Positions 6,366 to 62,898 of a DNA stretch of 63,874 nt are shown here, piece by piece (positions within the stretch are counted from its first letter, which is position 1; the number at the start of each line of letters is the position of its first letter). Source of the DNA: Paraspadella gotoi. Its lineage: Eukaryota; Animalia; Chaetognatha. The stretch lies in NCBI GenBank assembly GCA_051294375.1, contig CM119266.1:11943180-12007053 (forward strand). Direction: 5' to 3'. The notes beneath the pieces were generated by a model. That model was not told the origin of the DNA, did not search any database, and was given only the letters and a program-made list of their open reading frames with translations. The position numbers were made by a program, and so were the translations under genes.

Positions 6366-34930
<28,565 letters not shown>

Positions 34931-34938
34931 ACATTAGC

Positions 34939-35011
34939 GGAGCCGTGGTGTAGTGGTTATCACGTCTGCTTTACACGCAGAAGGTCCCCGGTTCGAGACC
35001 GGGCGGTTCCT
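34939..35011 (+). tRNA. tRNA-Val (TAC)
   Basis: Cloverleaf: acceptor GGAGCCG/CGGTTCC, anticodon arm TCTGC-TTTACAC-GCAGA, T arm CCCGG-TTCGAGA-CCGGG; T-runs downstream. Lies in an intron of the Ig gene. Confidence 0.95.
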
Positions 35012-35101
35012 GAACTTTCTTTTAAATTAAAGTTTTTTCCTCGTCTCTCTGATTTGATGCAGATTTTTTTATTATGACTTGTATTCGACCGCTTTACTAC
35101 A

Positions 35102-35173
35102 AGCAGCGTGGCGCAGTGGGAGCGTGCTGGGCCCATAACCCAGAGGTCGATGGATCGAAACCATCCGCTGCTA
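35102..35173 (+). tRNA. Initiator tRNA-Met (CAT)
   Basis: A1-T72 pair, CTGGG-CCCATAA-CCCAG anticodon arm, ATCGAAA T-loop typical of eukaryotic initiators; oligo-T terminator follows. Confidence 0.97.
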
Positions 35174-35879
35174 TTTTTTTTCATTGTTTTAACGAAACGG
35201 TCACCTTGCATTACTATCTTAAATAATTCTGGATCCCACACATTAAGGAATCTTAATAAATAAGACCAAAGAGGCAATAATAACACTTTTGATCCACCAC
35301 TTTTTACCCTCCCCCCTACCCTTGCCCCGCTTTTATCAAGGACCCCTCGACGTCCGCTACTCCTTACAAATCCGCTGCGACGAATCCGAATCCGTGGACC
35401 CCAACGCCAACAGCGTCTCCTGTCGCCTCTCGGCCAACCCGCCACCGCAGCCGCCCCTCCGCGGTCTTCGCTGGGAGGTGGATCGAGGGAACGGGTTCGA
35501 GCCGCTCGGGCTGGAGCCCCGCGTCGACGCCCTCGAGGATCCGTCGGAAGGCTTCGTCGTGAGGACGACGTTGGATGGCGCGGAAGGGCTGAGGGACCTC
35601 GTCTCGCTGAGGCTCAAGGCGGGGGAAATTTATGGTGAGGGGGTGAAGAATGTAGGGGCCATGGGGCAATGGAGCGATCCTTCGAAAATGGGCGATTTGG
35701 GATAATTTTTGTTCTTCCTTTTGTTCTTTTGTTTTACGACCCTTTTTGTCATAGTTCTTCCTTTTATTTTCTCTGTTTTTACTGTAAAGTCCTGTTTTCC
35801 TGCTAGCTTTCCTTTTATTCTTTGCTGGTTTTATAGCTTGTTATTTTTATTTACTTTTATATTTATTTTTTTCTCTTTT

Positions 35880-40200: not shown

Positions 40201-41251
40201 GCGCCGGAGAACGACGCCGGCGAGGAAACGCAGCAGCGCAGTTAACGTGGAATGGACGAACGCGAGACAAACGACGACGTCGACGCGAAATCGAAACAAA
40301 AGGGAAACGAGAGGAGAAGAATTGGAGAAGGAGGCGAAGATTTGGTAGAGGGAGAGGAGGAGGCAGAGGGAGGCTAGGGAGGTGAAGGGGGGGGGGTATG
40401 GGAAGATTAAAAACGATGCTCATTTGTCAATGAAACTTAGCGTTACGGTTAAAGTGCCTCGTTTTAATCTATTTAGAGCCTAATATTAATTTTATCATGA
40501 TATGATATAAAATAATATCATCTTCTACATATAACCTCAAAATTTATTTTTAAAAATTTAATATGTAAAAATTTTCATTATAAATGGATATTACGAAGCA
40601 GCGTGGCGCAGTGGAAGCGTGCTGGGCCCATAACCCAGAGGTCGATGGATCGAAACCATCCGCTGCTAGATCTCAAATCTTATTCTGAAGTCGGTAGTTT
40701 TTTAACGCTAAGGTTTTATTTATAAAGGACTAATCAAGAATTAGAGTGAAAATGTGGTATAAAAAGTTTTTTGCAATTTACGGTACATTTGCCAACATCG
40801 GACTGACGCTGCATCTCAGAGGACCCGCCAATGACAAGAAAAAAACCGACGAAGTCATCGTAAGACAACAACAAGAACAACAAGAACAACAAGAACAACA
40901 AGAACAACAAGAACAACAAGAACAACAAGAACAACAAGAACAACAAGAACAACAAGAACAACAAGAACAACAAGAACAACAAGAACAACAAGAAGAACAA
41001 GAAGAACAAGAAGAACAAGAAGAAGAAGAAGGCTCACCGGCGAACCATAGCAAAAACGGGGTCGACCTCCTTAATCTTTCAACGCCGATCGAAAAGGTAA
41101 GGAATCCTCCGGCGACGACAAAGGTAAGGCTCCCGAGGACAGCGTCGATGCCGGACACGGAATCCACGAGAGCGACCACGGCGGCGTCGAAGGCGCCGCT
41201 CGGAACCGCCGTTGTCGATGAGTTGAGGCTAAGCGTCGGGGCGGCGCACAT
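37254..41251 (-). CDS. Divergent rhodopsin-like (class A) GPCR with a very large ICL3; exons 41251-41038, ~40858-40782, ~40296-39896, 39762-39367, 39085-38900, 38815-38628, 38557-37254
   Basis: Seven hydrophobic segments with degenerate class A landmarks: RLRRSTPFLL after TM1, FADDFVGFFLV (TM2 Asp), KC before TM3, TLTALLRFLAGVV (DRY-like), AWIVG (TM4), LYLPFL (TM6), WRKEV helix-8-like. Introns 3-6 are canonical and phase-consistent; introns 1-2 lack an AG. Confidence 0.62.
40597..40668 (+). tRNA. Initiator tRNA-Met (CAT)
   Basis: Same hallmarks as 35102, with the canonical GGAA D-loop; antisense within intron 2 of the GPCR-like gene. Confidence 0.97.
40866..41030. repeat. 9-bp tandem repeat (CAACAAGAA)n grading into (GAA)n
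   Basis: Seen directly; fills the predicted intron 1 of the minus-strand GPCR-like gene (donor GTGAGC at 41037). Confidence 0.95.
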
Positions 41252-41400
41252 TTCCGTTTTCTATTCTGACTAAACGCGATAGTTTTTTAACATTCCAGGA
41301 TGACGGTGGAAATGGACATCCGTCTATTCTTCGTCTCTTATTCGCCGAAAGCGAGAGAGCAATGATGAACTATAAATGCGCTGCGAGCAAGTTGTCGTTG

Positions 41401-42073: not shown

Positions 42074-42146
42074 GGAGCCGTGGTGTAGTGGTTATCACGT
42101 CTGCTTTACACGCAGAAGGTCCCCGGTTCGAAACCGGGCGGTTCCT
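42074..42146 (+). tRNA. tRNA-Val (TAC)
   Basis: Identical to the 34939 copy apart from one T-loop base; followed directly by an oligo-T terminator. Confidence 0.95.
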
Positions 42147-42228
42147 TTTTTTTTGAAAAAAAAAATATCAATGGCTGCAAGGGAGGCCTTTATATTTTAT
42201 CTTGTTTTCCCTCGACTTCCACAGCTAG

Positions 42229-42300
42229 AGCAGCGTGGCGCAGTGGGAGCGTGCTGGGCCCATAACCCAGAGGTCGATGGATCGAAACCATCCGCTGCTA
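42229..42300 (+). tRNA. Initiator tRNA-Met (CAT)
   Basis: Identical to the 35102 copy; oligo-T terminator downstream. Confidence 0.97.
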
Positions 42301-43292
42301 CATTTTTTTTTCATTACTATTAGCTCAAGTATAAAGAAAATTCAGATTGCGAGATAATTTAAACGTATGAAATTAATATAACTAATATACTACGTATGTA
42401 ATTGTAACAATGACTGAAAATTTTTCAATTTATGGAATTCATTCAATAAACAACTGTAGTAAAGTTCTAAAATTTATTAGAGCATCATGTAACAGGAATA
42501 TGTAATTGTAAACATTACATCAGCCCTTACTTTGGTTAAAACCTATTAAGCGGTCTTTTCTCAAATCCTCAGCAAAGAAGAGAAAGCCTGTTCATTTGTT
42601 TCTGCCACAGAGAACCACTTTGACTCTAGACACAACGGCTCGAAAATTTAAAATCAGAATCACCCGACAACAAGGTTGATCACGATCAAAGGGTTTTCTT
42701 TCAATCACAATCGCAATAAAACCAACGTAAATTAAATATTATTTGCAGTAGGTAGAAATCTCTGATCTCAAAAGCAAATGTTTTTTTCAATTTACCTGTT
42801 TTTGTGGGTTAAAATTGTTCAATAACCATCTTTCTTTAACCACGTGATCAGTTGGAATTTTGTCGTCTCTTATTCAAGTTTTTTTTAATGTTTTTACCGA
42901 CGATAAAACTTTTTTTGAATGTTATTTCATATTTTGAAAGAGAAAACAAAGTTTGATTTTGTTTACAAACAACGAAGTTTATTGCTTTAAATGGACATGT
43001 TTCGACTCTTTTTCGAGTCTTCATCAGCGCAATGTGACTATATTTCATATTTATATTCATAGTTTAATTCCTATATTTTCCCTCTTTTTTTATTTTCTCC
43101 TCTCAACTCTTTTCTTTCTTTCTTTCATCTTTGCTCCTTTTCCTTTTCAAACGTTGAGACTCTAAGAGGCCACAATGGCCAGTTGGCAACATAAAGCCGA
43201 AAGAGACAATCTTCCTCTTCTCTCTTCGGTCAAATTTTCTTCCTTTTGTCCAAATCTAAAATTCCGAGGATCGATCTCTCCTGTCTCTCACG

Positions 43293-43310
43293 ATCACGTG
43301 ATATGAGTCA
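43293..43310. promoter_or_regulatory. Candidate E-box (ATCACGTGAT) plus AP-1 site (TGAGTCA) ~260 bp upstream of the pseudokinase-KEN-TFIIS gene
   Basis: Consensus matches and position only; function inferred. Confidence 0.35.
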
Positions 43311-43568
43311 CGGCCTCTCTGCCTCTCACCGTCGCATCTCAGTTCTATCTCATTCACGGGCTTCAATTCTTTGTTCACTCATTCGTGATTTTTGACTCTT
43401 CGTAAATATTTCAGCTTTCAATTAAACTACCTCAAAATACAACGACTTTTAATCTCAAAAACTTCAGAGCTCTAATTAATCTCAAAATCTCAAACATAAT
43501 ACAATACACAAATTCTCCAAGTCTCAAAATTACCTATTAATAACCTATTTTCGTAATCATAAACGAAC

Positions 43569-46500
43569 ATGTTGGTGGTCTCCTCCGATCCCCTGCCTTC
43601 CAAATCCCCCGCCAAGACCTTCATCGGCGAGCTCCACCTTCTTGGGACGGAGATCGACGTGGCCGTCCTTCGGCTTCGGGCAAAATCTCGTCCACGACTC
43701 AAACGTCTGATCGAGGGGGTCCGCCTGACGCTTCGAGGCCTGCAGCACGACAATGTCGTCAAGCCCCTGGTCGTGGAAGAAGATGAACAGCGACTCGAAG
43801 TCCGCGTGGCTACCCCGCTCGCGGTAGCGTCTTTGGAGGAGCTACTGGACCGGTTGGAAGGTTCGTGGAGCGAAGGGGAAGAAGACGACCCTTTAAAGGA
43901 GTTGGGTATCGAGTGGAACGAAGATGTAGCTAAGGATGTCGCCGTCCAGATACTTCACGGGTTGACACATCTCCATCGGAACTTCGCGGAGAAAGCTGAC
44001 GACAGAATCCGGTAAAGAAATTTCATTTTCTAAAATTTTCGTTGGAAACAAAAATACTATGTACCTGCGTAATTTGTTCGTTTCTGTATAATATTTTTAA
44101 AACTAAAATTTTTCTTAAAATTGAATATTTTCAACAAAATACTAGTTTCTTTATAATTTTAATTGCATGTTTTAATTTCATTTATTAGTTTCTTCTCCAA
44201 CGTCAAACCCTCCAACGTCCTCCTCTTCTCGAAAGGCGGTCGCGGGGGCGTCGACGTCAAGTTGAGCGATTTCCGGTGCCACGCGGTGCGAAAGAGCCGC
44301 TCCCTCGGCACCGACGCAGTCGACGAGCGCTTTCGAGTCGCTTCGGCGCCTGAGTGCAATTCTTGGACAAGCGAAGACTCGTTTGACCAGTGGAGCATCG
44401 CCGATGCAGAAGTTCACGCCGCAGGTTGGTCCAGAAATGTATAATTATCTCTGGATCATTTGAATTATCATAGCGCAATAGATAACTTTTAAATTTAACA
44501 CTCGCTTACTAACAACTTGTTTTTGTCAACCCTTTACATTCATAGTACATTAATTTTTAACAATCTACTTATTTCCCTCTTTTTTTCCCCGACAACAACA
44601 ACAACAAACCTCCAGGCTCTCTGCTCCTCCGTCTCTTCGCCACTCTCCCCACTTCTCTCCCCGCCGATCTCTCCTCCCTTCTCTCCTCGATGACCACGCC
44701 CATCCCCGCCGACCGCCCTGCCCTCCCCGCCGTCTCCGTCGACCCCGCTCTCTGGACGCCCGCCGTGAATGAAGCGGCGCTCGGGGACTTTTTCTCCGCC
44801 GTCGATTTTCGCCGCAAGGGTCTGAAGGAGCGACTCCGCGCGACGGCGGCGCCCTTCGAGGGTCTTTGGACCGACGAACGTTACGGCGTCGACGCCCGGC
44901 TGATGGAGGAACTGCGCAAGCGCCGCAAGGGCGGCTACGCCGCCGACGATCTGTTGGGACTGGTGGAGTTTGCTGTCGATCTCGGAAAGTTGGCGGCGCG
45001 ACCAACCAAGGCGTTTGCGCCGTTGATAGAGGCGGCGATGGGTGGAGCGACTGTGGCTGAATACTTGGCGAAGAGATTCCCCAAGATGGCGGCCGTGTGT
45101 TTGGAGGTAGGAGCGGAGATGCTGCAGCTAAAAGAATATTTGATGGAACCGATCGAACGGCGAAAGATTCCGAAGAGGGAGGCCGAGAAGGAAGAAGAGG
45201 ATGACGAAGACGACGAAGCAGCGTCAACCGATGTTGTCCAACAGCAGCCTCTCGCCGCAGCCGAACCAGCGGCGCCGATAATCGAATTCACCGGATTTCG
45301 ATCTGAAACAACGAGATGTCACTCGGACGAGGATCAAGATTCGCCTTCGCCGACAAAGTCTACCGATGACGAGGAAGACGTTCGTCCCACGACCAACGCC
45401 GCGGCGTCTTCGGCCACGTCGGCGTCGTCGGTTCCAACTTCCTCACCGGCCGACGCTGTGGATGAACTGGCGGCCATGATGATGGGCGGCGCCGGTTCCA
45501 TCTTCGGTTCCCCGGCGCCGAAATCATCGTCTGGACCTGCAATTGAGGCCACGTCGTCCTCAGCAGACTCTCTAGACGACCTCGTCGCTGGATTTGGCTC
45601 CCTCGGCGCCACTAGCGCCGCCACACCTAACGTCAATGGCAAGTCCTCTGTTGAGTTGGACATCTTGACGGACCTAATGTCCGGCGTTGATGTTGCCGGA
45701 TATCCCGGTGTCGAGGAATCCACGCCGCCTCTCGATCTCCAATCGTTGAGCGAAGCGTTGCCGACCATCGAAGCTTCGACGAAAGATTCGAAACAAAGAA
45801 TCGTGAAGTTGAAGGACGAGTTGGAGAGTTCCGAAATGGAGGTTGTCCGCGGGGCGTTGGAGGCGTTGAGCGAAGTGGAGATGACGCTGCATCTGCTGCA
45901 AGAGACGAAGATCGGGATGATCGTCAAGGAATTGAAAAAAAATAGTCAGGGTGAGAATGAAAATTTTAATATTATCGTTTTAGTAATATTTTATCTTAAG
46001 CCGTACTTAGTTAACTTTGATAAGTATTAAATTTTGTTTGAACCAATATTACCAATTTACCATTATCACTAACACATTGCTTTTACTTTTTCTTTTCTCA
46101 ATTTGATTTAATCTAAATTTCTTTTTTTTTATCTCATCTCATTTTTCTCTGCGCAGAGGATGACGTCAAGAGACTCAGTTCGATTCTCGTTTCTCAGTGG
46201 AAAACTCTTTTGCCTGACGTCAAAGGAAAAGAAAACCTCGTCAAAACTCCGCCCAAAAAGTAAGTAACCTTTTTGGACCTACTTCGGAGTAGAAGCGAAT
46301 GAGTTATAAGTACACGTACCTTAAATTTATTAGCTTGCATTTTGGAGATTAAATATACATATAACCCTCCACTAAAACAATGACAATAACAAGAACAACA
46401 ACAAATAAAACAATAAAACCGTCTAGTCTAGTGTCTGTTTTAGTTCGTCTTTTCCTCTTGTAAAGTGTTCCTCATGTAACATGAAATCCATAACCAATTG

Positions 46501-47022
46501 TTTATTAACCAATCACCAATCAAGGCGACCCGGTTACAAATTGGCTTCGGAGACTTCCACCTCTGACGATCTTCGCCTCAAGAGTCGGAAGATGATTCTC
46601 GACGCGGTGTTTGAGAGGACGGGAGAGACGCCCTCGACGAGAGTGGCCAAGAACATCGCGGCCAGAGTGGAAGAGGCCGTGTTTCAGGTGAGGGCAATCC
46701 TTTTATATATATTTTCTTTCGTTCTTTCGTAACCTAGCAACGATCATCCCTCCTCCACCTTTCCCAGGCCAACAAGGGCGACACCGGCCACAAGTACCGC
46801 GCCACCATCCGGTCCCGAGTCTTCAACCTGCGCGATCCGAAGAACCCTGAACTGGGCGATGACGTAGTGGGCGGGGCCATCCTCGCCGAAGAGTTCGCCG
46901 CTATGACGGCCGACGAAATGGCCTCCAAAGACATGAGGCGCTTGAGGGAAGATTTGTGGCAACAGGCCAATAGGGAGAGGGTTCTCAAGTCGCCCAGGCA
47001 GTTGTTTTTGACCAGGTGGTGA
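43569..47022 (+). CDS. 844-aa fusion: IRE1/RNase L-like pseudokinase + degenerate KEN domain + acidic/Ser linker + TFIIS N-terminal domain + TFIIS central domain; exons 43569-44011, 44189-44424, 44616-45950, 46157-46259, 46525-46687, 46768-47022
   Basis: Five GT-AG introns with matching phases; 2535 nt open to TGA. Kinase remnants VAVL, HDNVV, QILHGLTHLH, NVKPSNVLL, VKLSDF, APE. KEN-like DPALW...LWTD..VDARLMEEL..Y...EYLAKRFPKM. TFIIS-N LQETKIGMIVKELKK...LVSQWKTLL. TFIIS-M KYRATIRSRVFNLRDPKNPEL...MTADEMASKDM. Confidence 0.85.
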
Positions 47023-47292
47023 ACGAAGGGGAATCGATGTACTGGTGGGCTGTTTTTTTTTTTTAATATATTGTTTTAGTTTTGTTTTCATTTTCATTTT
47101 TCTTTTTTTCTCCAGTTTATAAACTTGTCAATTTTATTATTTGCAATTTTCTTATTGCACCTTTCGATTGTTGAAGCTCTGATTGTTGCTAGTCTAATCA
47201 ATCAAATATAATTTTAATCAAAATTTTCAGAATTCTGTTATTTAAATTAATATAAAAGTGGTGCACCTCAATTGAATTTAAGCTTCAAAATG

Positions 47293-50200
47293 CTAGTCTA
47301 AACAATTTCCGTTCTCTTTGGTGGACGGGAAAAGGACCGCGGATTGCACCAGACCAGGTTTCACCGGAAGATTGTGACCGCAGAACTGAATCTCCTGAAA
47401 CAGAAAGAGATGCCGTGACCCCTCTGCGGCGACGTTGATTTTGGTCGTTCAGTATTGTACTGACCTTTGCCACGTCCGTTTTGACGAAGACCGAATTGAT
47501 ATAAAGCTTTGGTTTTCTAAAAGCGGGCCAGGAACTTGGGTCCGTTATTTTCCTTGGAAGTTGATAGAAAACTTTAAATATTTTAGTGTCCCAGGGAAAT
47601 GATCAATCGTAGACAGAGAAGAAACGTTATACTGTGGCGAATCCTAAATTCACCTCCCGTTCCCCCTCTGATCAATGGGATTTGTTAAATAAGGTGGACT
47701 TGAGGCGGTGTGAATATACCGCCACACATCTGCTTTTCTCTACTACTTATTTAAGATTCTTGTACGTATAATAGCGATCACTCCCTAGAGATACATTTTA
47801 ATTAAAATTCAAATCCGCCACATTTTTACCATTTATACTCCCACCACAACTGGACGTTGGTCGGCGTCCCCGCCTTCACCGTCGACGTCTTCAAATATCT
47901 AAAGGGCCTGCCGGGCGTCAGCGTCTGCTCCGCCGCCGACAGCGTCATGTCGCCCGTGGAGGAGGCGTCCCCCACGACTTCCGCGTGGAGGAGTCCCTGT
48001 TGCGGAAGACCGAGTCCAGAGCTGAGGCCGACTTCAACAACGTAATTGTGGCGACACCTGTGTTATAACGTTAAAGATTATCAGATTCATCTTGAGACCA
48101 TCATTACTTTTATTCCCTTTTGATTGACTTCAATTACATGTCATTGAAAGAGAACAAAGTTACATTATCTATTGTGCGAAATCCATAGGAACAAATAATT
48201 AGTATAATAATAATAGAGAGCAGTATATAGTACAAGTTTAAAATCTTGCTTGTGTTACCCACCCAACTTTGCCCAACTGCCTATGCTGACCGAAGAGGTC
48301 GAATTGGCTTGCATTTTATTAAAACAGATATAGCAATTTGATTCAAGACTTAATCGCACAAAGTTCCTAATTTTTGGGTATTTAAAATAAATTTAAAATT
48401 AAAAATAAGAATCATAAAATTCTACTGCAATATGCAAATTTTTAAAAAAAGTGGACAGAATGAGATCATCTTATAATATTATTAACGAACCCACCTCGGC
48501 TTCTCAGCTCCAGTGGAGAGGTACATTTTGACGTTTTCCTCTCCCTCTTTGAGTTTATCTTTGAACCGATCGGCTTGGTGACCCATGGTAGCGCATTTGG
48601 ACCCGTCCTCGGCGCAGTTGAGGCAGAGGCCCAAGAGGAATGCGTCGTAGCTAGGGCATCTGCGCTTTGAGAGGAAAATCGACGAGACGAATTGGTGGTT
48701 ATCCAACAAGCCGACGCGAAAATGTTTTTTATGATTTTTTATATCGCAATATAATGATCGTTAAGACTAAGACATCCCAATCTTCGTATTTCTCACCTAT
48801 ACCCATAAAAGGGACAGGCGGAGTTGATAGATTCAGTGTAGAGATAAATGGATCGCATGTGAGAACACGCCACGACGTCAAAGACGCTCCCTCCTGTTCG
48901 TTATCATCATTCTTATCAATCTTATTATCATCGGTAAGGTAAGGTAAGTTCGAACCGCCGTTTATGATTCCGCCGTTGATGACCTTATCCACTAGCGACT
49001 TATCACATCCGGGTTGCTTCATCCCGTTGTTGGGATAAAAGTCGACGTGACCGACGGGATCGTTCATCCCTAAACCTGGAGAGTCGTGAAAACGAGGGCC
49101 AATGAGAAAAAGGTTTTAGGTTTCGTAGAACAAGATGGAATTGTTAAAATTCAATTCATAAAATCAAAAATAATTAGTTCATTTAAAAAAAATTTAAAAA
49201 TCCTGGAATTGTAAACAATTAAATAATAATTTATTATTGAATTGATAAATATCAAATAACCTTTATCCGGCGCCGTGATGGCGCCACCGATATCGTAAAA
49301 ACTCGCGGCGTCGGAGTGAATGACGTCGACGAAATCGGCGTCGGTTGGATCGAGCCTCACCTGAGCCCCGTAGCCCTGAAAGTAAGGCTCCGCGGGATCC
49401 AAACCTTTTTATTTGGTGGAAGTAAGTAAGGCTTCGTTGAAATTACATTCGTGGTCGATTTGGACTTTGATTTATTTCTCCGAATCTCACCCGTGATTCT
49501 GCCCAGATTTTTGATCCTTTCTCCCGCGTAGCCCGCGATGTGAGACCCCAGCGAATGGCCGAGGATGTGAAAGTCCTATTAGAGGGAAAACGGCATCACG
49601 TGACTTATAGAAAAATAAGTTGAAATAAAACTCGCGCTGATTGTAACTCCGTTGGCACGCGGTAGGAGAGATTTCATTCAATCAGGCGTGAATTTGGAAA
49701 TCAACGCCAAGAAAAGAAACTTCTTTCTCCCCTTTTTTTTTTTAATTTTACATGTTTTTTTCCATCTTGTTTTAAAAAAAGTTTCTAACTTTTGGCTCGG
49801 CGTTCGTCCATTCGCAAATTCGTTGGACGAGCAACGCGATTTCCGCTCCGATGAGACGCGTATTTGCCGACGCCTTGCGGAGAGGGAAGGAGTAGGGCCG
49901 TAGGGAATATATATATGGGGTTGAAAGTGCTAGGGCTGCGAAGCGTTAATTAGAAAATTATTTTTAAAAAAGTGTAAAAAAAGTTATAAAATATGAAATA
50001 AAATAGGAAAAATATTTATGTCAATTGACTTGAGCGTATGGAATCCTCGCGCCGATGTTCCAGTCCACGCGAATCACGTTGTAGTCGTCTTTGATGAGAA
50101 AAGCCTTCGCCATGTCGACCAACCATTTGTCGCCCCCGAAATCCATGAACCTGACAAGAAGTTTTATTAGTGTTTATATCAATTCAGATGTATAATATTG

Positions 50201-50638
50201 ACTTACGGTTCGTAAACCCAACGCATTGTCACAATGCCAATTTCAATGCACATTACGCCAATTACCCGTGCACAATGATCTTGGTTGGTCGCTGCGGGTC
50301 AAAGTGAGAATGAACTATGGAAAACTTTGAAGTGTACTGGAGAAGATCTTCAGAGGAAGGCGCAGAGTTTTCCCTGATAACAAATAGAAATAGTTTTTCG
50401 TGCGAAGCTTGTGACATTTTTTAAAAATATGATTTAATCTTTACCGAGTGTTGAGCAGAAAACGCGTCCTCAACTTCTCCGGAGACAATGGTAGAAACTG
50501 GACGGGCCGATCGACGAAATCGCCCGTGATGCCGAAGCAGCCCAGGTCGCCGAAGCATCTTTCCAATGTTCCGATCCACAGAGACTCCCCGCCGAAACAA
50601 AAGAGCAACGATATTAAAAAGACGGAAAAACCAACCAT
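47293..50638 (-). CDS. Pancreatic triacylglycerol lipase-related protein with C-terminal PLAT-like domain; exons 50638-50445, 50373-50266, 50150-50030, 49873-49790, 49575-49491, 49404-49261, 49075-48956, 48893-48797, 48659-48495, 48057-~47830, then two exons ending at 47293
   Basis: Signal peptide, [23 protein letters not shown], nucleophile [17 protein letters not shown] (catalytic Asp), [39 protein letters not shown] (catalytic His). One junction near 47830/47555 needs a 1-nt correction. Confidence 0.93.
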
Positions 50639-51068
50639 GATGATCACGATTGACTATTTAACTAAATTTCCAAAGCCGAGTGACTTTTGTCCCACGTTTG
50701 ATTTTGTGTGGTTCGTTTTTTGGCGTCAGAGAAAAAACGACTCGACTTTTTGATTCAGGGATCTTTCATGGGAAAGCATCATCTGCAAACTTTGTTATTA
50801 AGACTGGAAGTCTCCTGAAATCTAATTAACTGAGTATTAAGGCGGGCCAAAATTGAACACTTTTTATAACTTCTAATTCTCTCAAAAAATGATAAAAAAT
50901 AAAAATAAAAAATAAAATAAAAAATGAAAAAATGATATATTACTGATTACCGCTAAAAAACTAATATGCATTGTTACTTATACTAATAACTCTTTTCTTT
51001 TTTAGCGTCTAAACAGTTTAACATTTAATAATATCTATAAATTGTCTTATTTAAAAAAGTGATTGAGG

Positions 51069-54339: not shown

Positions 54340-54945
54340 TAAGGCGTAGTGAAAGTTACATACGAAAATTCTAAAAGTCAATTATGAACAACATACCATC
54401 AGTGAACATTAATTTGTAAAAAAAATAATTTTATGTTTTTATTTTTGCAGTAGGCTATATTTATATATAGTACTATCCTTATAAAATCGAAAATTTCAAA
54501 ATAGGTTTTTCTTAATTTTGATTGCAGATTTGAATTCCTCGTCAAAAGTTGATTAAAGAAAATATAAATCATTTTTTAAAATTCTTTCATTAAGTGAGTT
54601 AAAAATTAAAAAAACTATATTTAATAATATAAAATTAATTTTCAGCTTAAAATATATCTTTTTTTAATTTTTGACCACTTAATGAAGGAATTTTTCAAAA
54701 AGAGTTATATTTCTTTTTGTCAACTTTTTATGACAAATCCGAATCTGCAAAAAAATCTTAGAAAAAACTGTTTTGAAATTTTAACATTTATTGGTTTAGT
54801 ACTAGTATAAATATGGCCTACTGCGTAAATTGTAAAATTTATTATAAATTTTTTTATTATATAAATGTTCATTAATATAATATTGTTCGTTCCTCACTTT
54901 TAGAATTTTAATTAAAGTAAAATTTAGAAATTTTACTACGCCTTA
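54340..54945. mobile_element. Non-autonomous hAT-type DNA transposon (MITE), 606 bp
   Basis: Perfect 11-bp TIR TAAGGCGTAGT...ACTACGCCTTA; 8-bp TSD CTGGGTAG at 54332-54339 and 54946-54953; long imperfect internal inverted repeats; no transposase ORF. Confidence 0.93.
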
Positions 54946-55251
54946 CTGGGTAGTTGTTGAGTCGGAGTGATGAAATGTGAATAAAAGTAAAGGACGAAGC
55001 CGATTGTTTCATTCATGGTAATCGGATCAATTATTTCATTTAAAAAAACTGGAAAATTTTGATATTGTAACCCTCAAATATTAGTATTTAAATTCTGTTC
55101 ATGCGTTTCTTTTTGGTACGTCCGTAAAAAAAAGTTCACAATCGCAAGAATGTCGTCCAAATTTATTAGTATCTTTTCGCAAGAATAAACAAAGACGCAT
55201 GCGAGCGTGGTGAATAAAATTTCAAACGAAAATTAACAAAAGGATCTTCTT

Positions 55252-56948
55252 TCAAATCTTACAGATGTAAGGCGACAAATATTTATCGTAATGAAACCAC
55301 TTTCCTCTGTAGTCATGTGACCCCCGAGGAAGATTGATCGCCCTCTTCCACCGTTTCGCTCGTTCCCCATTTCGAAGTTGAGAAATTCCATTACGCTCCG
55401 TCCAATCGCGCGGCGCAATGACCGTCGACGAAGGTTCCACCTTTGGGATAGATGGGGAGAGAAAGATTGACAGACGAATGGTAAAATATGATGAGACAAA
55501 TATTCTCGTAACTTTTATAAAACAGTAGCTATTTCCCATGTATATATATATTATTGAACTAGTAGTCTTCGAAAACGGTTTCTTGATCTGGATTTTCGTC
55601 ACCCATGTACTAAACTGTTTTTTTTTTTTGCCATACGCACAAATCAACTTTTGTCTTCATCACCTAATAACCAGCTGTCCTTCCTGTTGATGGCCCTCGT
55701 CATCTCGTCGAGAAAAACGTTCTCATCCTTATTTTCGATCTGGACCAACCAACCGCCGAGTTGTTTACAAATTTGAGTCGCGTTGTTTTTGTAACTCGGG
55801 ACGTTAACGAAGAGGTAACAGTGATCAGCGAATTCCCTGTCGAATAATAACTCAAATTACTACCACGTTATAGGTACAATTCTTAATTGAGTCGTTGTTA
55901 ATAAATTGGTACAACCATTATCCATTTATTCATTAAATAACTGATGTTGCCTCTGACTTTGACCAGGATGTTGTGGGCGAAGGCCTCAATCCCACTTGAA
56001 AGATTGAAACAATTATTACAATTATTAATTCCCCAGTGCAAATGGCTTTCTTAGTTTCAATGAAGAGGTACGTATAATGTTTTCATGAGCAGTTTTAATT
56101 CTAAAATATGATAGTTTAAACGTAAACATATAGACCTTACCTGGCCACGAACAAACTCCGATGCTGCCTCCATATTTTCTCGCATTTTCCTTCGACGTTA
56201 TTTTGTCTCGCCGTGACGTAAAAAGCGATGACGACGCCCACGAGCGCCGCGTTCAGGATGAGACTGATAACTGCGACGCCGCGCCACTGACATTCCGCTT
56301 CCGGTGAGGTCTTGGCTAACGCCTCTGGAACGTCAGTGAGTATCGTGCCTGGTCTGCTGGTCGGATCTGTAAGGGATATATCGGTGGTGTAACGGCTGTA
56401 TTTAAGGAGGATGAACAAAGGTTTCTGTGGATTTTGTTTCGCCGACAACAAAACTGGCACAAAAAATAACAACATCAACTTTGAAAGAAAAGAGAATGTC
56501 TGGTTTTTATGGTTCACTTACCAATGGTCGATGGGCGAAGGACGGAAGAAGAAAAGTCGGGTATCATGTTGCTCTGCAAAGACAATCAATTTAAGCGATT
56601 GCTCATTTGTTTACTTCACATTTAAATTTAATTGAGGGACAAAGTTAGACTGATTTCACGAACTTTTTCCGAAAATTCGCTTTGCCTTGGGAGAGGAGGA
56701 AAGTCTTTATTATCACTGTCGGCTTGCCATATCGATGAGTCGGATTGTCTCTCGGGTAGACCGACAGAATCGGTGTCATCGTCGGTAAGCTTGAGCGGTT
56801 CGAAATGAACGGCTGGTTGTTCCTTGGGCGGAGGTCCCTTTAAAGGGTTTTCCAACTTGTGCGATTTTGAGGGCGGACTGAGGCCCCATTCTTGGAAGAC
56901 CGATTGGTCGATGTCTTCCGTTCCCCGTTTTGGATTATACTTCGCCAT
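55252..56948 (-). CDS. Type II membrane C-type lectin-like domain protein; exons 56948-56664, 56573-56522, 56366-56141, 55994-~55915, 55836-55664, 55440-55252 (last exon frameshifted)
   Basis: Cytoplasmic N-terminus, TM VAVISLILNAALVGVVIAFYV, then CTLD EFADHCYLFV...ATQICKQLGGWLVQIENKDENVFL...SWLLG and terminal GKW...YICKI-stop. The exon 4/5 junction is not cleanly resolved. Confidence 0.75.
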
Positions 56949-57453
56949 TAAGGCGTAGTGAAGGTTACATACGAAAATTCTAAATTGTCAATTATGAACA
57001 ACATACCATCAGTAAACGTAATTGTGTAAAAAAAAATTAATTTTATGTTCTTCAATTTCGCAGTAGGCATTATATTATATATAGTACTATCCTTATAAAT
57101 CGAAAAAATTTCAAAATAGGCTTTTCTTAATTTTAATTGCAGATTTGAATTCCTCGTCAAAAGTTGATTAAAAAAAAATATAAATCATTTTTTAAATTTC
57201 TTTCATAAGTGGGGTTAAAATTCTCAAAAAATATCATTACAAAAAAACTATTTTGAAAATTTAACATTTATTGGATTAGTACTAATGTAAAATGGACGTC
57301 ACTGCGTACAATTAGTAAAATTATTTAGAAAGGTTTATAGGAAATACACAAAATGAAATTCGAGATATTAGGCGATTAATGTTGTTGATCCTCACCGACT
57401 CTTAAGAATTTTAATTAAAGTCTAATTGTAGAATTATTTGACTACGGTATTTA
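56949..57453. mobile_element. Second copy of the hAT-type MITE, 505 bp, internally deleted, degenerate right TIR
   Basis: Starts TAAGGCGTAGT and aligns with 54340 onward; ends ACTACGGTATTTA; 8-bp TSD TTCGCCAT at 56941-56948 and 57454-57461. Confidence 0.88.
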
Positions 57454-61300: not shown

Positions 61301-62898
61301 TATGTTTAATTCGTTAACAATAAATATTCGAAATAGTACGAACAGTACAGACAAAAGAAAGCAAAATTAAATTAATTTAAGTTGAACTAAGTATAAGTCG
61401 AGCGCCTTCATTAAATCTCTACCCCCGGGCTGGGCGGTTAGGCGATGGAACTCCCAAATTCTGTCCAATTAAATTTTTCTGAAATAAATAAAGGGAAAAA
61501 AGTGGTAATTCAATGTAAGGGAAATTTGACTTGACTCGAAAGGTATTCGTCCTAAAAGGGACTACATCCTTCACTAAGATGTCTTCTAGGTTTTATAAGA
61601 TGCAGCCAGAATGTTGAAGGAATGGGAAGGGAAAAATTGGAGGGGCAAAGGGGGGAAGAGGGAAAGGGGGAAGGCAAGGGGGGAGTTAAACAGGAGGGTT
61701 GGGCCTGGCCCATTCTGTAAGGAGAATTGGCGCCGGCGTCCTCGTTATCGTCTTCGTCGTCGTTTCGGCCGTGGACAATTATTCGTGTCATTAGAGTTTC
61801 CTCGAAATTAAAAATAAAGAGGAGAACGCTGATTTATGATCCCGAAAACCTCGGTGATTGTCTATCGCCTTCTCGTTTTTAAGTTTTAACAAATATTAAT
61901 TCGCTTCGCTTATTTTCTCTTAACGTGAAAACCTGAAACTAATCTTATGTTCTGACACTAGTTAACGTTTGAGAAACGTCAAGCTTAATTCGTGACATGG
62001 ATTACCTTCGTTGCTCACTTTTCGGAACGACAACGCCGCTTCGTTTGCCTTCCCCCCTACCCCTTTCCCCGCCAACCCTTATACATCGAACCCATTTTCC
62101 CTCCCCCCCCTTTTTCAAAAATCCTCCTTCTTCTCTCTTCTGCCATTCCCCATCTGCACTCAACTTCCCTACCCACCGCGCCGGATTTTCCACTCCCCGG
62201 CTCCGCTTGCATCGACCCGCACTTCTTGGCCGCCCCCGCCGGCCCATTACCCAGGCGACGAAGCGAGCTCCATGTTCTTCGTCCTCGAAGGCGAAGTCGT
62301 TGTCGTCGTCGGCGGAAAAAAGAGGTTAACCGCCTGAGCGCCGGCGGATATTTCGGAGAGATGGCGCTGATGACGAAGGAGAAACGGAGCGCCACCGTCA
62401 AAGCGGCCGGACACGTCGTCCTCGGTACGTGATTGATGGAAGGGGAGGGGCGTGGACGCGGTTTGGCGTGGGAGCGTTAGACTCGGGACGAGCTGTGAAC
62501 GTCGTCATTTGCATAATTGGCAATATTGAAAATTGAGTAAATTAACATTTTCGAAAAAGTGAAATTTGGGTTAATCGCGGTCATTTACTCGTGTCGATAA
62601 ACGACTAGTGGTCTTGTAAAGTTTTATCTTTCTAAATCCTTATTTGTTTATTAATATGCAATTTTTTTAGGTTCTTTTCGGATCCCGTATTTTCCTCTCG
62701 AAAACCCCTTTTCACTTTCAAAATCAATTTTTGCTTTCGATTCATCTGACTTCCGGTCTCCATTCCGACGGACGCGCCCACTTTATATATTTAATTTGTT
62801 GAATTTCCCCAGGCGAGTTGGGCGTGGACGCGTTCGAGCGTATCTTGGGTCCGTGCAAAGAGCTCATGCGACGCAAACAAGATACGTACAAGAAATAA
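58376..62898 (+). CDS. cAMP-dependent protein kinase regulatory subunit-like (two cNMP-binding domains); confident exons 59710-59862, 60302-60501, 60908-60985, 61119-61279, 62255-62424, 62813-62898; first exon 58376-58504 tentative
   Basis: Inhibitor-site-like RRCAIS, EGEEGEDFYIIESG, cassette A FGELALMYHWPRQATVKA, cassette B YFGEMALMTKEKRSATVKA, C-terminal AFERILGPC. One frameshift in the A-run at ~62316-62321; exons between 58504 and 59710 unresolved. Confidence 0.85.

What the first reader, a model, noticed from the sequence alone, without database searches (positions are those of the whole stretch)
43569..47022. IRE1/RNase L-like pseudokinase-KEN module fused to TFIIS domains I and II
Seen: one phase-consistent six-exon ORF of 844 aa. 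The KEN-like part, linker and start of TFIIS-N share a single 1.3 kb exon, so the fusion is not a splice-prediction artefact. Known: kinase+KEN is the effector unit of IRE1 (with luminal and TM domains) and RNase L (with ankyrin repeats); TFIIS-N is a docking hub for elongation factors and TFIIS-M binds RNA polymerase II. Neither ankyrins nor a TM segment are visible here. Inference: a soluble protein that brings an RNase L/IRE1-type stress or antiviral module to transcribing Pol II, or an integrated decoy. I do not know this architecture from any characterised protein.
Basis: partly seen in the sequence, partly recalled or inferred. Interest (0 to 1): 0.9.

Follow-up and report, generated by a model that had tools for sequence, protein, structure and literature searches.

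The report
Dead IRE1 module fused to TFIIS
An unidentified animal and its relatives carry a spliced, conserved gene that joins a likely IRE1-derived, likely inactive kinase-RNase module to the first two domains of the transcription factor TFIIS; the protein lacks the TFIIS cleavage finger, so it is predicted to dock on RNA polymerase II as a regulator rather than cut RNA.

Summary
The fusion is real. One 2984-nt contig from an independent run skips all five predicted introns exactly, giving the 844-aa protein. Two full-length relatives (870 and 907 aa, 45-48% identical) have the same order: kinase-like, KEN-like, acidic linker, TFIIS domain I, TFIIS domain II, and a conserved 14-residue tail in place of the zinc ribbon. 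The N-terminal half likely descends from IRE1, not RNase L. IRE1 takes ranks 1-13 of 22 PDB hits and kinase+KEN clusters head the ESM Atlas list, but each score is weak and no fold test worked. The HRD aspartate is Asn, there is no glycine-rich loop, and the window's KEN-like domain has no histidine at all. The most conserved folded domain is TFIIS domain II (74 of 114 columns invariant). Most likely the protein occupies the TFIIS site on Pol II without stimulating cleavage, like PHF3/Bye1, with the dead IRE1 module as a scaffold or RNA binder (inferred, about 50%). No description of this architecture was found in the papers searched.

The parts
43291..47169 (+). Spliced transcript as assembled from run X9 (278-nt 5' leader, six exons, at least 147 nt of 3' UTR)
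   Evidence: contig 26, 2984 nt, five GT..AG joints; the strand is inferred from the intron ends and the ORF
43569..44011 (+). Exon 1: kinase-like N-lobe to helix E; no glycine-rich loop; beta-3 Lys replaced by Leu35
   Evidence: (Pkinase E 0.07)
44189..44424 (+). Exon 2: catalytic loop FSNVKPSN (HRD Asp replaced by Asn152), DFR in place of DFG, poorly conserved activation segment, helix F
44616..44761 (+). Start of exon 3: end of the kinase C-lobe, aligning in the relatives to the IRE1 kinase/KEN junction
44762..45172 (+). KEN-like domain (aa 276-412) without any histidine; two conserved basic stretches (44804-44827 and 44906-44935)
45173..45760 (+). Acidic Ser/Thr-rich linker with four short conserved motifs (45287-45331, 45455-45502, 45566-45598, 45731-45760), some resembling TND-interacting motifs (inferred)
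   Evidence: motif description from PMC9987994
45794..46218 (+). TFIIS domain I (TND, PF08711), across exons 3 and 4
46556..46977 (+). TFIIS domain II (PF07500), across exons 5 and 6; most conserved folded domain
46978..47022 (+). Conserved C-terminal tail ending LFLTRW plus stop codon, in place of the domain III zinc ribbon
   Evidence: 16 of 18 columns invariant over aa 827-844; no CxxC in any of 3 full-length proteins

Best explanation
The gene encodes one 844-residue protein that is predicted to be a nuclear, non-cleaving TFIIS relative: its TFIIS domain II would dock on RNA polymerase II, it lacks the domain III zinc ribbon, and its N-terminal half is a likely IRE1-derived kinase-KEN module that is likely inactive at both sites. 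Shown: the splicing, the domain order, conservation in three full-length proteins, and the loss of the zinc ribbon, the HRD aspartate and the Rx4-6H motif. Inferred steps: (1) domain II binds the Pol II jaw, as TFIIS, Bye1 and PHF3 do; (2) without domain III it cannot stimulate cleavage of backtracked RNA and so competes with true TFIIS, as shown for PHF3; (3) domain I and the acidic linker motifs exchange TND/TIM-type contacts with elongation factors, or with each other; (4) the pseudokinase-pseudoKEN module supplies the second anchor that domain II needs, as a scaffold that may dimerise and may bind nascent RNA through its conserved basic stretches without cutting it. One basic stretch could instead be a nuclear localisation signal.
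For: Single spliced contig. Same architecture and same C-terminal tail in P0006 and P0012. Invariant columns across the three full-length proteins: TFIIS-II 74 of 114, tail 16 of 18, N-lobe 47 of 95, KEN-like 49 of 137 (27 of 44 around the basic stretch and following helix), TND 19 of 51, linker 39 of 186. P0006's TFIIS part is closer to TCEA1 (E 1e-23, two stretches) than to PHF3 (E 2e-10). The TIGR01385 match ends at position 243 of 300 in both relatives scanned. IRE1 ancestry: ranks 1-13 of 22, 16 of 18 hits, best hit outside the TFIIS family, Atlas top three. Dead sites: judged against the motif definitions in PMC4718504, PMC3710099 and PMC9472280 (passages). Precedent for competition with TFIIS, and for domain II needing a second anchor: PMC8526623 (passages).
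Against: No binding, localisation or activity data exist for this protein; every functional step is by analogy. The IRE1 scores are individually non-significant or marginal (E 0.013-0.39; PF06479 E 0.064 in 1 of 14 members). The tool alignments to IRE1 stop before the catalytic helix. In the Atlas, plain kinase clusters score almost as high (0.96, 23 of 30 hits). The relatives keep the beta-3 Lys (5 of 7 exon-1 sequences), the catalytic-loop Lys and Asn and the DFG-position Asp, so nucleotide binding may persist. P0012 has one Rx5H (300-306) inside the KEN-like domain, although it lies in a gapped segment and is absent from the other two proteins. Bye1's TFIIS-like domain had no effect on Pol II activity in vitro (PMC10111866 passage), so competition is not the only possible outcome.
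Confidence: 0.5

Rival explanations
1. The conserved C-terminal tail replaces domain III functionally: it follows the linker helix into the Pol II funnel and stimulates or gates elongation, so the protein is a positive or specialised elongation factor rather than a TFIIS competitor.
For: The tail begins where the TCEA1 match ends (chain residue 249 of 301), and 16 of 18 columns are invariant.
Against: The tail has no cysteines and no Asp-Glu pair. It is only about 14 residues beyond domain II, probably too short to reach the active site (inference).
Confidence: 0.17
2. The TFIIS domains serve mainly as an interaction or nuclear-targeting handle, and the main job is to modulate true IRE1 or the unfolded protein response as a dead partner of its kinase-RNase module.
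For: The N-lobe is well conserved (47 of 95 columns invariant), which suggests a retained protein interface. IRE1 RNase works as a dimer (PMC9472280 passages).
Against: Domain II is more conserved than any part of the IRE1-like half. There is no membrane anchor. The module is so diverged from IRE1 that profile searches barely detect it.
Confidence: 0.1
3. It is an active RNase with a remodelled catalytic site that cuts nascent RNA at Pol II under stress or infection.
For: A 44-residue stretch around the expected active site is well conserved (27 of 44 invariant), and includes basic residues and an invariant Tyr that may match IRE1 Y892 (register inferred). PMC3710099 notes that some HEPN families use alternative residues (passages).
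Against: No His in the window's KEN-like domain and no shared Rx4-6H in the three proteins. His and Arg of that motif are essential in KEN domains (PMC3710099 passage).
Confidence: 0.08
4. It is an immune sensor with an integrated decoy: the TFIIS domains bait viral proteins that target Pol II.
For: Kinase-KEN modules with variable partner domains occur in several eukaryote lineages (PMC3710099 table passage).
Against: The supposed bait is the slowest-changing folded domain. The effector looks dead. There is a single copy in the window, with no tandem expansion.
Confidence: 0.07
5. The N-terminal half is a generic degenerate kinase followed by an unrelated helical domain, not an IRE1 derivative.
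For: The window's own pieces give no KEN or IRE1 hit. P0007 gives 0 PDB hits. Septins outrank IRE1 for profile A1.
Against: IRE1 outranks every other kinase in two colinear stretches. The P0001 match runs from the kinase C-lobe into the RNase domain. The three best Atlas clusters carry PF06479 for two different queries.
Confidence: 0.07
6. The fusion is an assembly or gene-prediction artefact joining two genes.
For: The transcript evidence is an assembled contig, not a single long read, and the run's RNA label is a guess.
Against: One open exon holds both halves. Unbroken DNA and spliced contigs agree. Two independent full-length relatives from other sources have the same fusion.
Confidence: 0.01

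Closest known systems
IRE1 (ERN1/Ire1p) cytosolic kinase-KEN module
   Same: Kinase-like domain followed directly by a KEN-like domain; best PDB match in the N-lobe and at the kinase/KEN junction; nearest Atlas clusters.
   Different: No luminal domain or TM segment; HRD Asp, DFG Gly, glycine-rich loop and APE absent; no Rx4-6H; fused to TFIIS domains.
RNase L
   Same: Soluble, with a pseudokinase plus KEN order (definition from PMC10400998 and PMC4718504 passages).
   Different: No ankyrin repeats; no RNase L chain among the PDB hits; RNase L keeps an active KEN site and is reported as a jawed-vertebrate lineage (PMC10400998 passages).
TFIIS / TCEA1-3
   Same: Domains I and II in the same order; closest solved relative is TCEA1 (E 1e-23).
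   Different: Domain III zinc ribbon and its acidic pair absent and replaced by a short conserved tail; about 600 extra N-terminal residues.
PHF3, DIDO, SPOCD1, PPS and Bye1 (TFIIS-like-domain proteins)
   Same: Carry domain II without a working domain III; PHF3 displaces TFIIS from Pol II (PMC8526623 passages). This is the best functional analogy.
   Different: They use PHD and SPOC domains and have no TFIIS domain I; this protein has no PHD or SPOC and is closer in sequence to TCEA1.
TCEANC/TCEANC2 and trypanosome TFIIS2-2
   Same: TFIIS paralogues built on domains I and II. TbTFIIS2-2 lacks domain III (PMC2610381 section 5). TCEANC1/2 are named as N-terminal and central domain proteins (PMC10111866 passage).
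   Different: None is described with a kinase or KEN module; the trypanosome TFIIS2-1 proteins carry an N-terminal PWWP domain instead.

Membership tests
IRE1 | Kinase domain directly followed by a KEN domain | tested here: met
   Met on weak but concordant sequence evidence from the relatives:
IRE1 | KEN fold at residues 276-412 | tested here: inconclusive
IRE1 | Luminal sensor domain and TM segment | tested here: not met
   In-frame stop 9 nt before the ATG within the transcribed leader; hydropathy maxima 1.18 and 0.96; relatives start at the same Met
IRE1 | Active kinase motifs (beta-3 Lys, HRD Asp, DFG) | tested here: not met
   HRD position reads FSN/FAN/FTN in 3 of 3 full-length proteins; DFG reads DFR/DYF/DFF; beta-3 Lys absent in the window and P0006, present in 5 of 7 exon-1 sequences
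KEN/HEPN RNases | Rx4-6H catalytic motif | tested here: not met
   No His in window residues 225-461; no Rx4-6H shared by the three proteins in the KEN-like domain; one unshared Rx5H in P0012
RNase L | N-terminal ankyrin repeats | tested here: not met
   No ankyrin family in Pfam scans of two full-length relatives and the window exons
TFIIS (TCEA) | Domain I (PF08711) | tested here: met
   25.5, 41.9 and 39 bits against a cut-off of 20.6
TFIIS (TCEA) | Domain II (PF07500) | tested here: met
   73.5, 104.8 and 99.4 bits against a cut-off of 29.2
TFIIS (TCEA) | Domain III four-Cys zinc ribbon with Asp-Glu pair | tested here: not met
   No CxxC in 3 of 3 proteins; transcript runs unspliced 147 nt past the stop; TIGR01385 121-124 bits against a cut-off of 237
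TFIIS (TCEA) | Binds Pol II and stimulates transcript cleavage | not testable with these tools
   Needs experiment
PHF3/DIDO/Bye1 (TLD-SPOC) | SPOC domain, usually with PHD | tested here: not met
   Neither family appears in Pfam scans at E up to 1

The most novel reading that the evidence does not exclude
An animal lineage has rebuilt the ER-stress enzyme IRE1 into a Pol II elongation factor. The dead kinase-KEN module still dimerises and reads RNA stem-loops, now on nascent transcripts, while TFIIS domain II and a new tail sit at the Pol II funnel, so RNA structure or nucleotide state decides whether backtracked polymerases are rescued by TFIIS.
Probability: 0.2. Interest if true: 0.9.

Novelty: new variant of a known kind. 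Interest (0 to 1): 0.72.

Why it matters
A 2025 review lists only five non-TFIIS proteins bearing TFIIS domain II: BYE1, PPS, DIDO, PHF3 and SPOCD1 (PMC12139180 section 7), all of them SPOC-domain proteins. This gene adds an independent design that keeps domain I, drops the cleavage finger and takes on a module from the unfolded-protein-response enzyme IRE1. It also appears to be a natural double-dead kinase-RNase kept under selection across species 45-60% identical. That offers a direct way to ask what an IRE1-type module does without catalysis, and whether TFIIS antagonism has evolved more than once.

Full report
Observation. The six-exon model holds. Exons 43569-44011, 44189-44424, 44616-45950, 46157-46259, 46525-46687 and 46768-47022 have GT..AG boundaries and give one 844-aa reading frame. 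Of 11 public runs listed, 9 hold half or more of the sampled words. I laid 4 of them. Run X9, from a different study and year than the likely source DNA, has one 2984-nt contig from 43291 to 47169 that skips exactly the five predicted introns and differs at two positions; DNA run X1 has one unbroken contig 43213-47460. The same X9 run also skips a 70-nt intron of the opposite-strand neighbour, so it behaves as RNA although its label is a guess. An assembled contig is not a single molecule, but the KEN-like part and most of TFIIS domain I also share one open exon. An in-frame TAA at 43560 lies inside the transcribed leader, so nothing is missing at the N-terminus. The transcript runs 147 nt past the stop without a splice, and a convergent transcript starts to be covered at 47282, so no zinc-ribbon exon follows.

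Setting. No genome is held. The host is inferred to be an animal from the intron-rich genes and a downstream minus-strand lipase (PF00151, E 2e-9) whose GHSLG motif and layout I recognise from recall as pancreatic-lipase type. I could not name the lineage. The gene has no second copy in the window.

Relatives. A full HMMER scan of 1.84 billion representatives gave 3 hits, one of them real (P0001, 41% identical); the other two were dropped as repeats. Word-based searches gave 0 hits, 1 hit (P0006, 907 aa) and 7 hits. The cluster look-up listed 15 members, none named, among them P0012 (870 aa). P0006 and P0012 have the same order of parts, the same start and the same final residues LFLTRW. Identities are 375 of 830 (45%) and 394 of 816 (48%) to the window protein and 514 of 860 (60%) to each other. 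Three more sequence types, P0008-P0010, cover only exon 1 and are 75-83% identical to P0006; their full architecture is not shown. P0008, P0010 and P0011 end at the codon where window exon 1 ends, P0013 ends just after the exon 2/3 junction, and P0007's homology starts at exon 3, so introns 1 and 2 are likely shared. All relatives come from JGI/IMG, ENA or Logan records, none from NCBI or UniRef. This suggests a poorly annotated animal group with at least six sequence types.

The TFIIS half. PF08711 and PF07500 pass their cut-offs in all three full-length proteins. The closest solved relative of P0006 is TCEA1 (E 1e-23, both domains), ahead of PHF3 (E 2e-10). The match ends at TCEA1 chain residue 249 of 301 and at TIGR01385 position 243 of 300. 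There is no CxxC in any of the three proteins. Domain II is the most conserved folded part (74 of 114 columns invariant), and the tail that replaces domain III has 16 of 18 invariant.

The N-terminal half. Pkinase scores E 7.6e-5 and 1e-5 in the relatives, below the curated cut-off. For IRE1 ancestry: a profile of P0012's N-terminal half plus the window exons ranks IRE1 chains 1-13 of 22 (E 0.013-0.039) in two colinear stretches, ahead of ULK1/2 at E 0.3 or more, with no RNase L chain. P0001 gives IRE1 in 16 of 18 hits, aligning from the kinase C-lobe through HPFFWS to KGGSVRD in the RNase domain. IRE1 is the best hit outside the TFIIS family for profile A2 (E 0.03). P0007 hits PF06479 at E 0.064. 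In the ESM Atlas the top three of 30 clusters carry PF06479 both for P0006 200-432 (0.89-0.91; on 18%, 88% and 13% of members) and for P0012 1-430 (0.96-0.97; 90-96% of members). Against: the window's own pieces give no KEN or IRE1 hit, PF06479 appears for only 1 of 14 members, P0007 has no PDB hit, plain kinases make up 23 of 30 Atlas hits at up to 0.96, and both fold models failed. I put IRE1 descent at about 90%.

Both active sites look dead. By the motif definitions in PMC4718504 (passages), the HRD position reads FSN, FAN and FTN, the DFG position DFR, DYF and DFF, and no glycine-rich loop is present. The beta-3 Lys is Leu in the window and Arg in P0006 but is kept in 5 of 7 exon-1 sequences. 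The catalytic-loop Lys and Asn and the DFG-position Asp are kept, so nucleotide binding is not excluded. KEN catalysis needs the Arg and His of Rx4-6H (PMC3710099 passages; R905, N906, H910 and Y892 in human IRE1, PMC9472280 passages). The window protein has no His between residues 225 and 461, a result that does not depend on alignment register. P0006 has one unshared His in this domain and P0012 one unshared Rx5H in a gapped segment. Yet residues 319-362 are 27 of 44 invariant and include a basic RKRRK/RKKRK/GKKRK stretch and an invariant Tyr. Something on this surface is under selection. RNA binding is the reading offered for motif-less HEPN domains in PMC3710099 (passages); a nuclear localisation signal is the alternative (consensus recalled).

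Linker. It is acidic and Ser/Thr-rich (37 Asp/Glu and 43 Ser/Thr in 186 residues) and poorly conserved overall (39 of 186), with four islands at 9 of 21, 6 of 16, 7 of 11 and 8 of 10 invariant columns. Two carry FxxF or helix-plus-GF patterns. TND-interacting motifs are described as a short helix, an acidic linker and an optional FxGF (PMC9987994 passages). The resemblance is by eye and was not tested.

Mechanism. Domain II is the main Pol II-binding region of TFIIS and binds the jaw (PMC12139180 section 7). PHF3 lacks domain III, displaces TFIIS from Pol II and blocks arrest rescue, and its TFIIS-like domain needs a second anchor to do so (PMC8526623 passages). The most economical reading is a non-cleaving TFIIS relative that occupies the same site, with the TND and linker motifs contacting elongation factors and the dead IRE1 module acting as scaffold, dimeriser or RNA binder (about 50%; every functional step inferred). 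Rivals: the tail acts in place of domain III (17%); a dead partner of true IRE1 (10%); a remodelled active RNase (8%); an integrated decoy (7%); non-IRE1 origin of the N-terminal half (7%); artefact (1%). The complex predictor was not available, so dimerisation is open.

Prior knowledge. A search for IRE1, RNase L, KEN domain and TFIIS together returned 0 papers. A search for TFIIS, pseudokinase, fusion protein, IRE1 and invertebrate returned 3 papers, none containing TFIIS. Searches returned nothing whose listing describes this fusion; most of those papers were seen only as listings. The 2025 TFIIS family review has 0 occurrences of IRE1 or fusion. The HEPN survey lists kinase, ankyrin, CCCH, UBI and BRCT partners for KEN and has 0 occurrences of TFIIS in its text and in its one readable supplement. 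PMC2610381 (abstract and section 5) gives precedents for TFIIS paralogues with a foreign N-terminal domain or without domain III. PMC10111866 (passages) names TCEANC1/2. PMC10400998 was seen as passages only; its figure of RNase-domain architectures and its supplement could not be read and might show this form. Subscription journals and InterPro were not searchable. One unchecked earlier scan note (e1-9597002) describes an IRE1-derived kinase fused to Kelch repeats in a sea squirt, which suggests such shuffling recurs in animals; I did not test it.

Verdict. A real, transcribed, conserved and apparently undescribed architecture. It is not a member of IRE1, RNase L or TFIIS by their defining features, and most likely works like PHF3/Bye1-type TFIIS-site occupants. 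New variant of a known kind; interest 0.72.

Noticed in passing
window 47282-50653 (minus strand): Multi-exon pancreatic-type lipase gene (PF00151, E 2e-9 at 48485-48760) converging on the fusion gene; the two X9 contigs end about 110 nt apart.
   Followed up: partly
window 15581-25347 and 25356-34933: Tandem duplication of about 9.6 kb at 91-93% identity containing a polo-box (PF00659) gene; the first copy looks frame-disrupted relative to the second in the ORF listing.
   Followed up: no
window 34939-35185, 40597-40668 and 42074-42315: Five tRNA genes: two Val(TAC)+Met(CAT) pairs in a 250-nt repeat at 80% identity, plus a single Met(CAT).
   Followed up: no
window about 42940-43035 and 47693-47726: Two short stretches flanking the gene with very high summed depth in all four runs laid and many loose ends; probably high-copy repeats. 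No Rfam match, and each occurs once in the window.
   Followed up: partly
window 54340-57446: Inverted repeat of about 550 nt (54365-54909) with a partial second copy near 56949-57446, possibly a non-autonomous DNA transposon.
   Followed up: no
window 40860-41030: Long tandem run encoding (QQE)n inside an open frame at 40734-41270; only low-complexity Pfam hits.
   Followed up: partly
window 61989-62429: Exon with a cyclic-nucleotide-binding domain (PF00027, E 1e-6).
   Followed up: no
window 43303: One upstream ATG in the 278-nt 5' leader of the fusion transcript.
   Followed up: no
P0001 and P0020: Both are listed with a JGI contig of 3128 nt and together cover the N-terminal half; probably one transcript broken by frameshifts in the assembly.
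   Followed up: no
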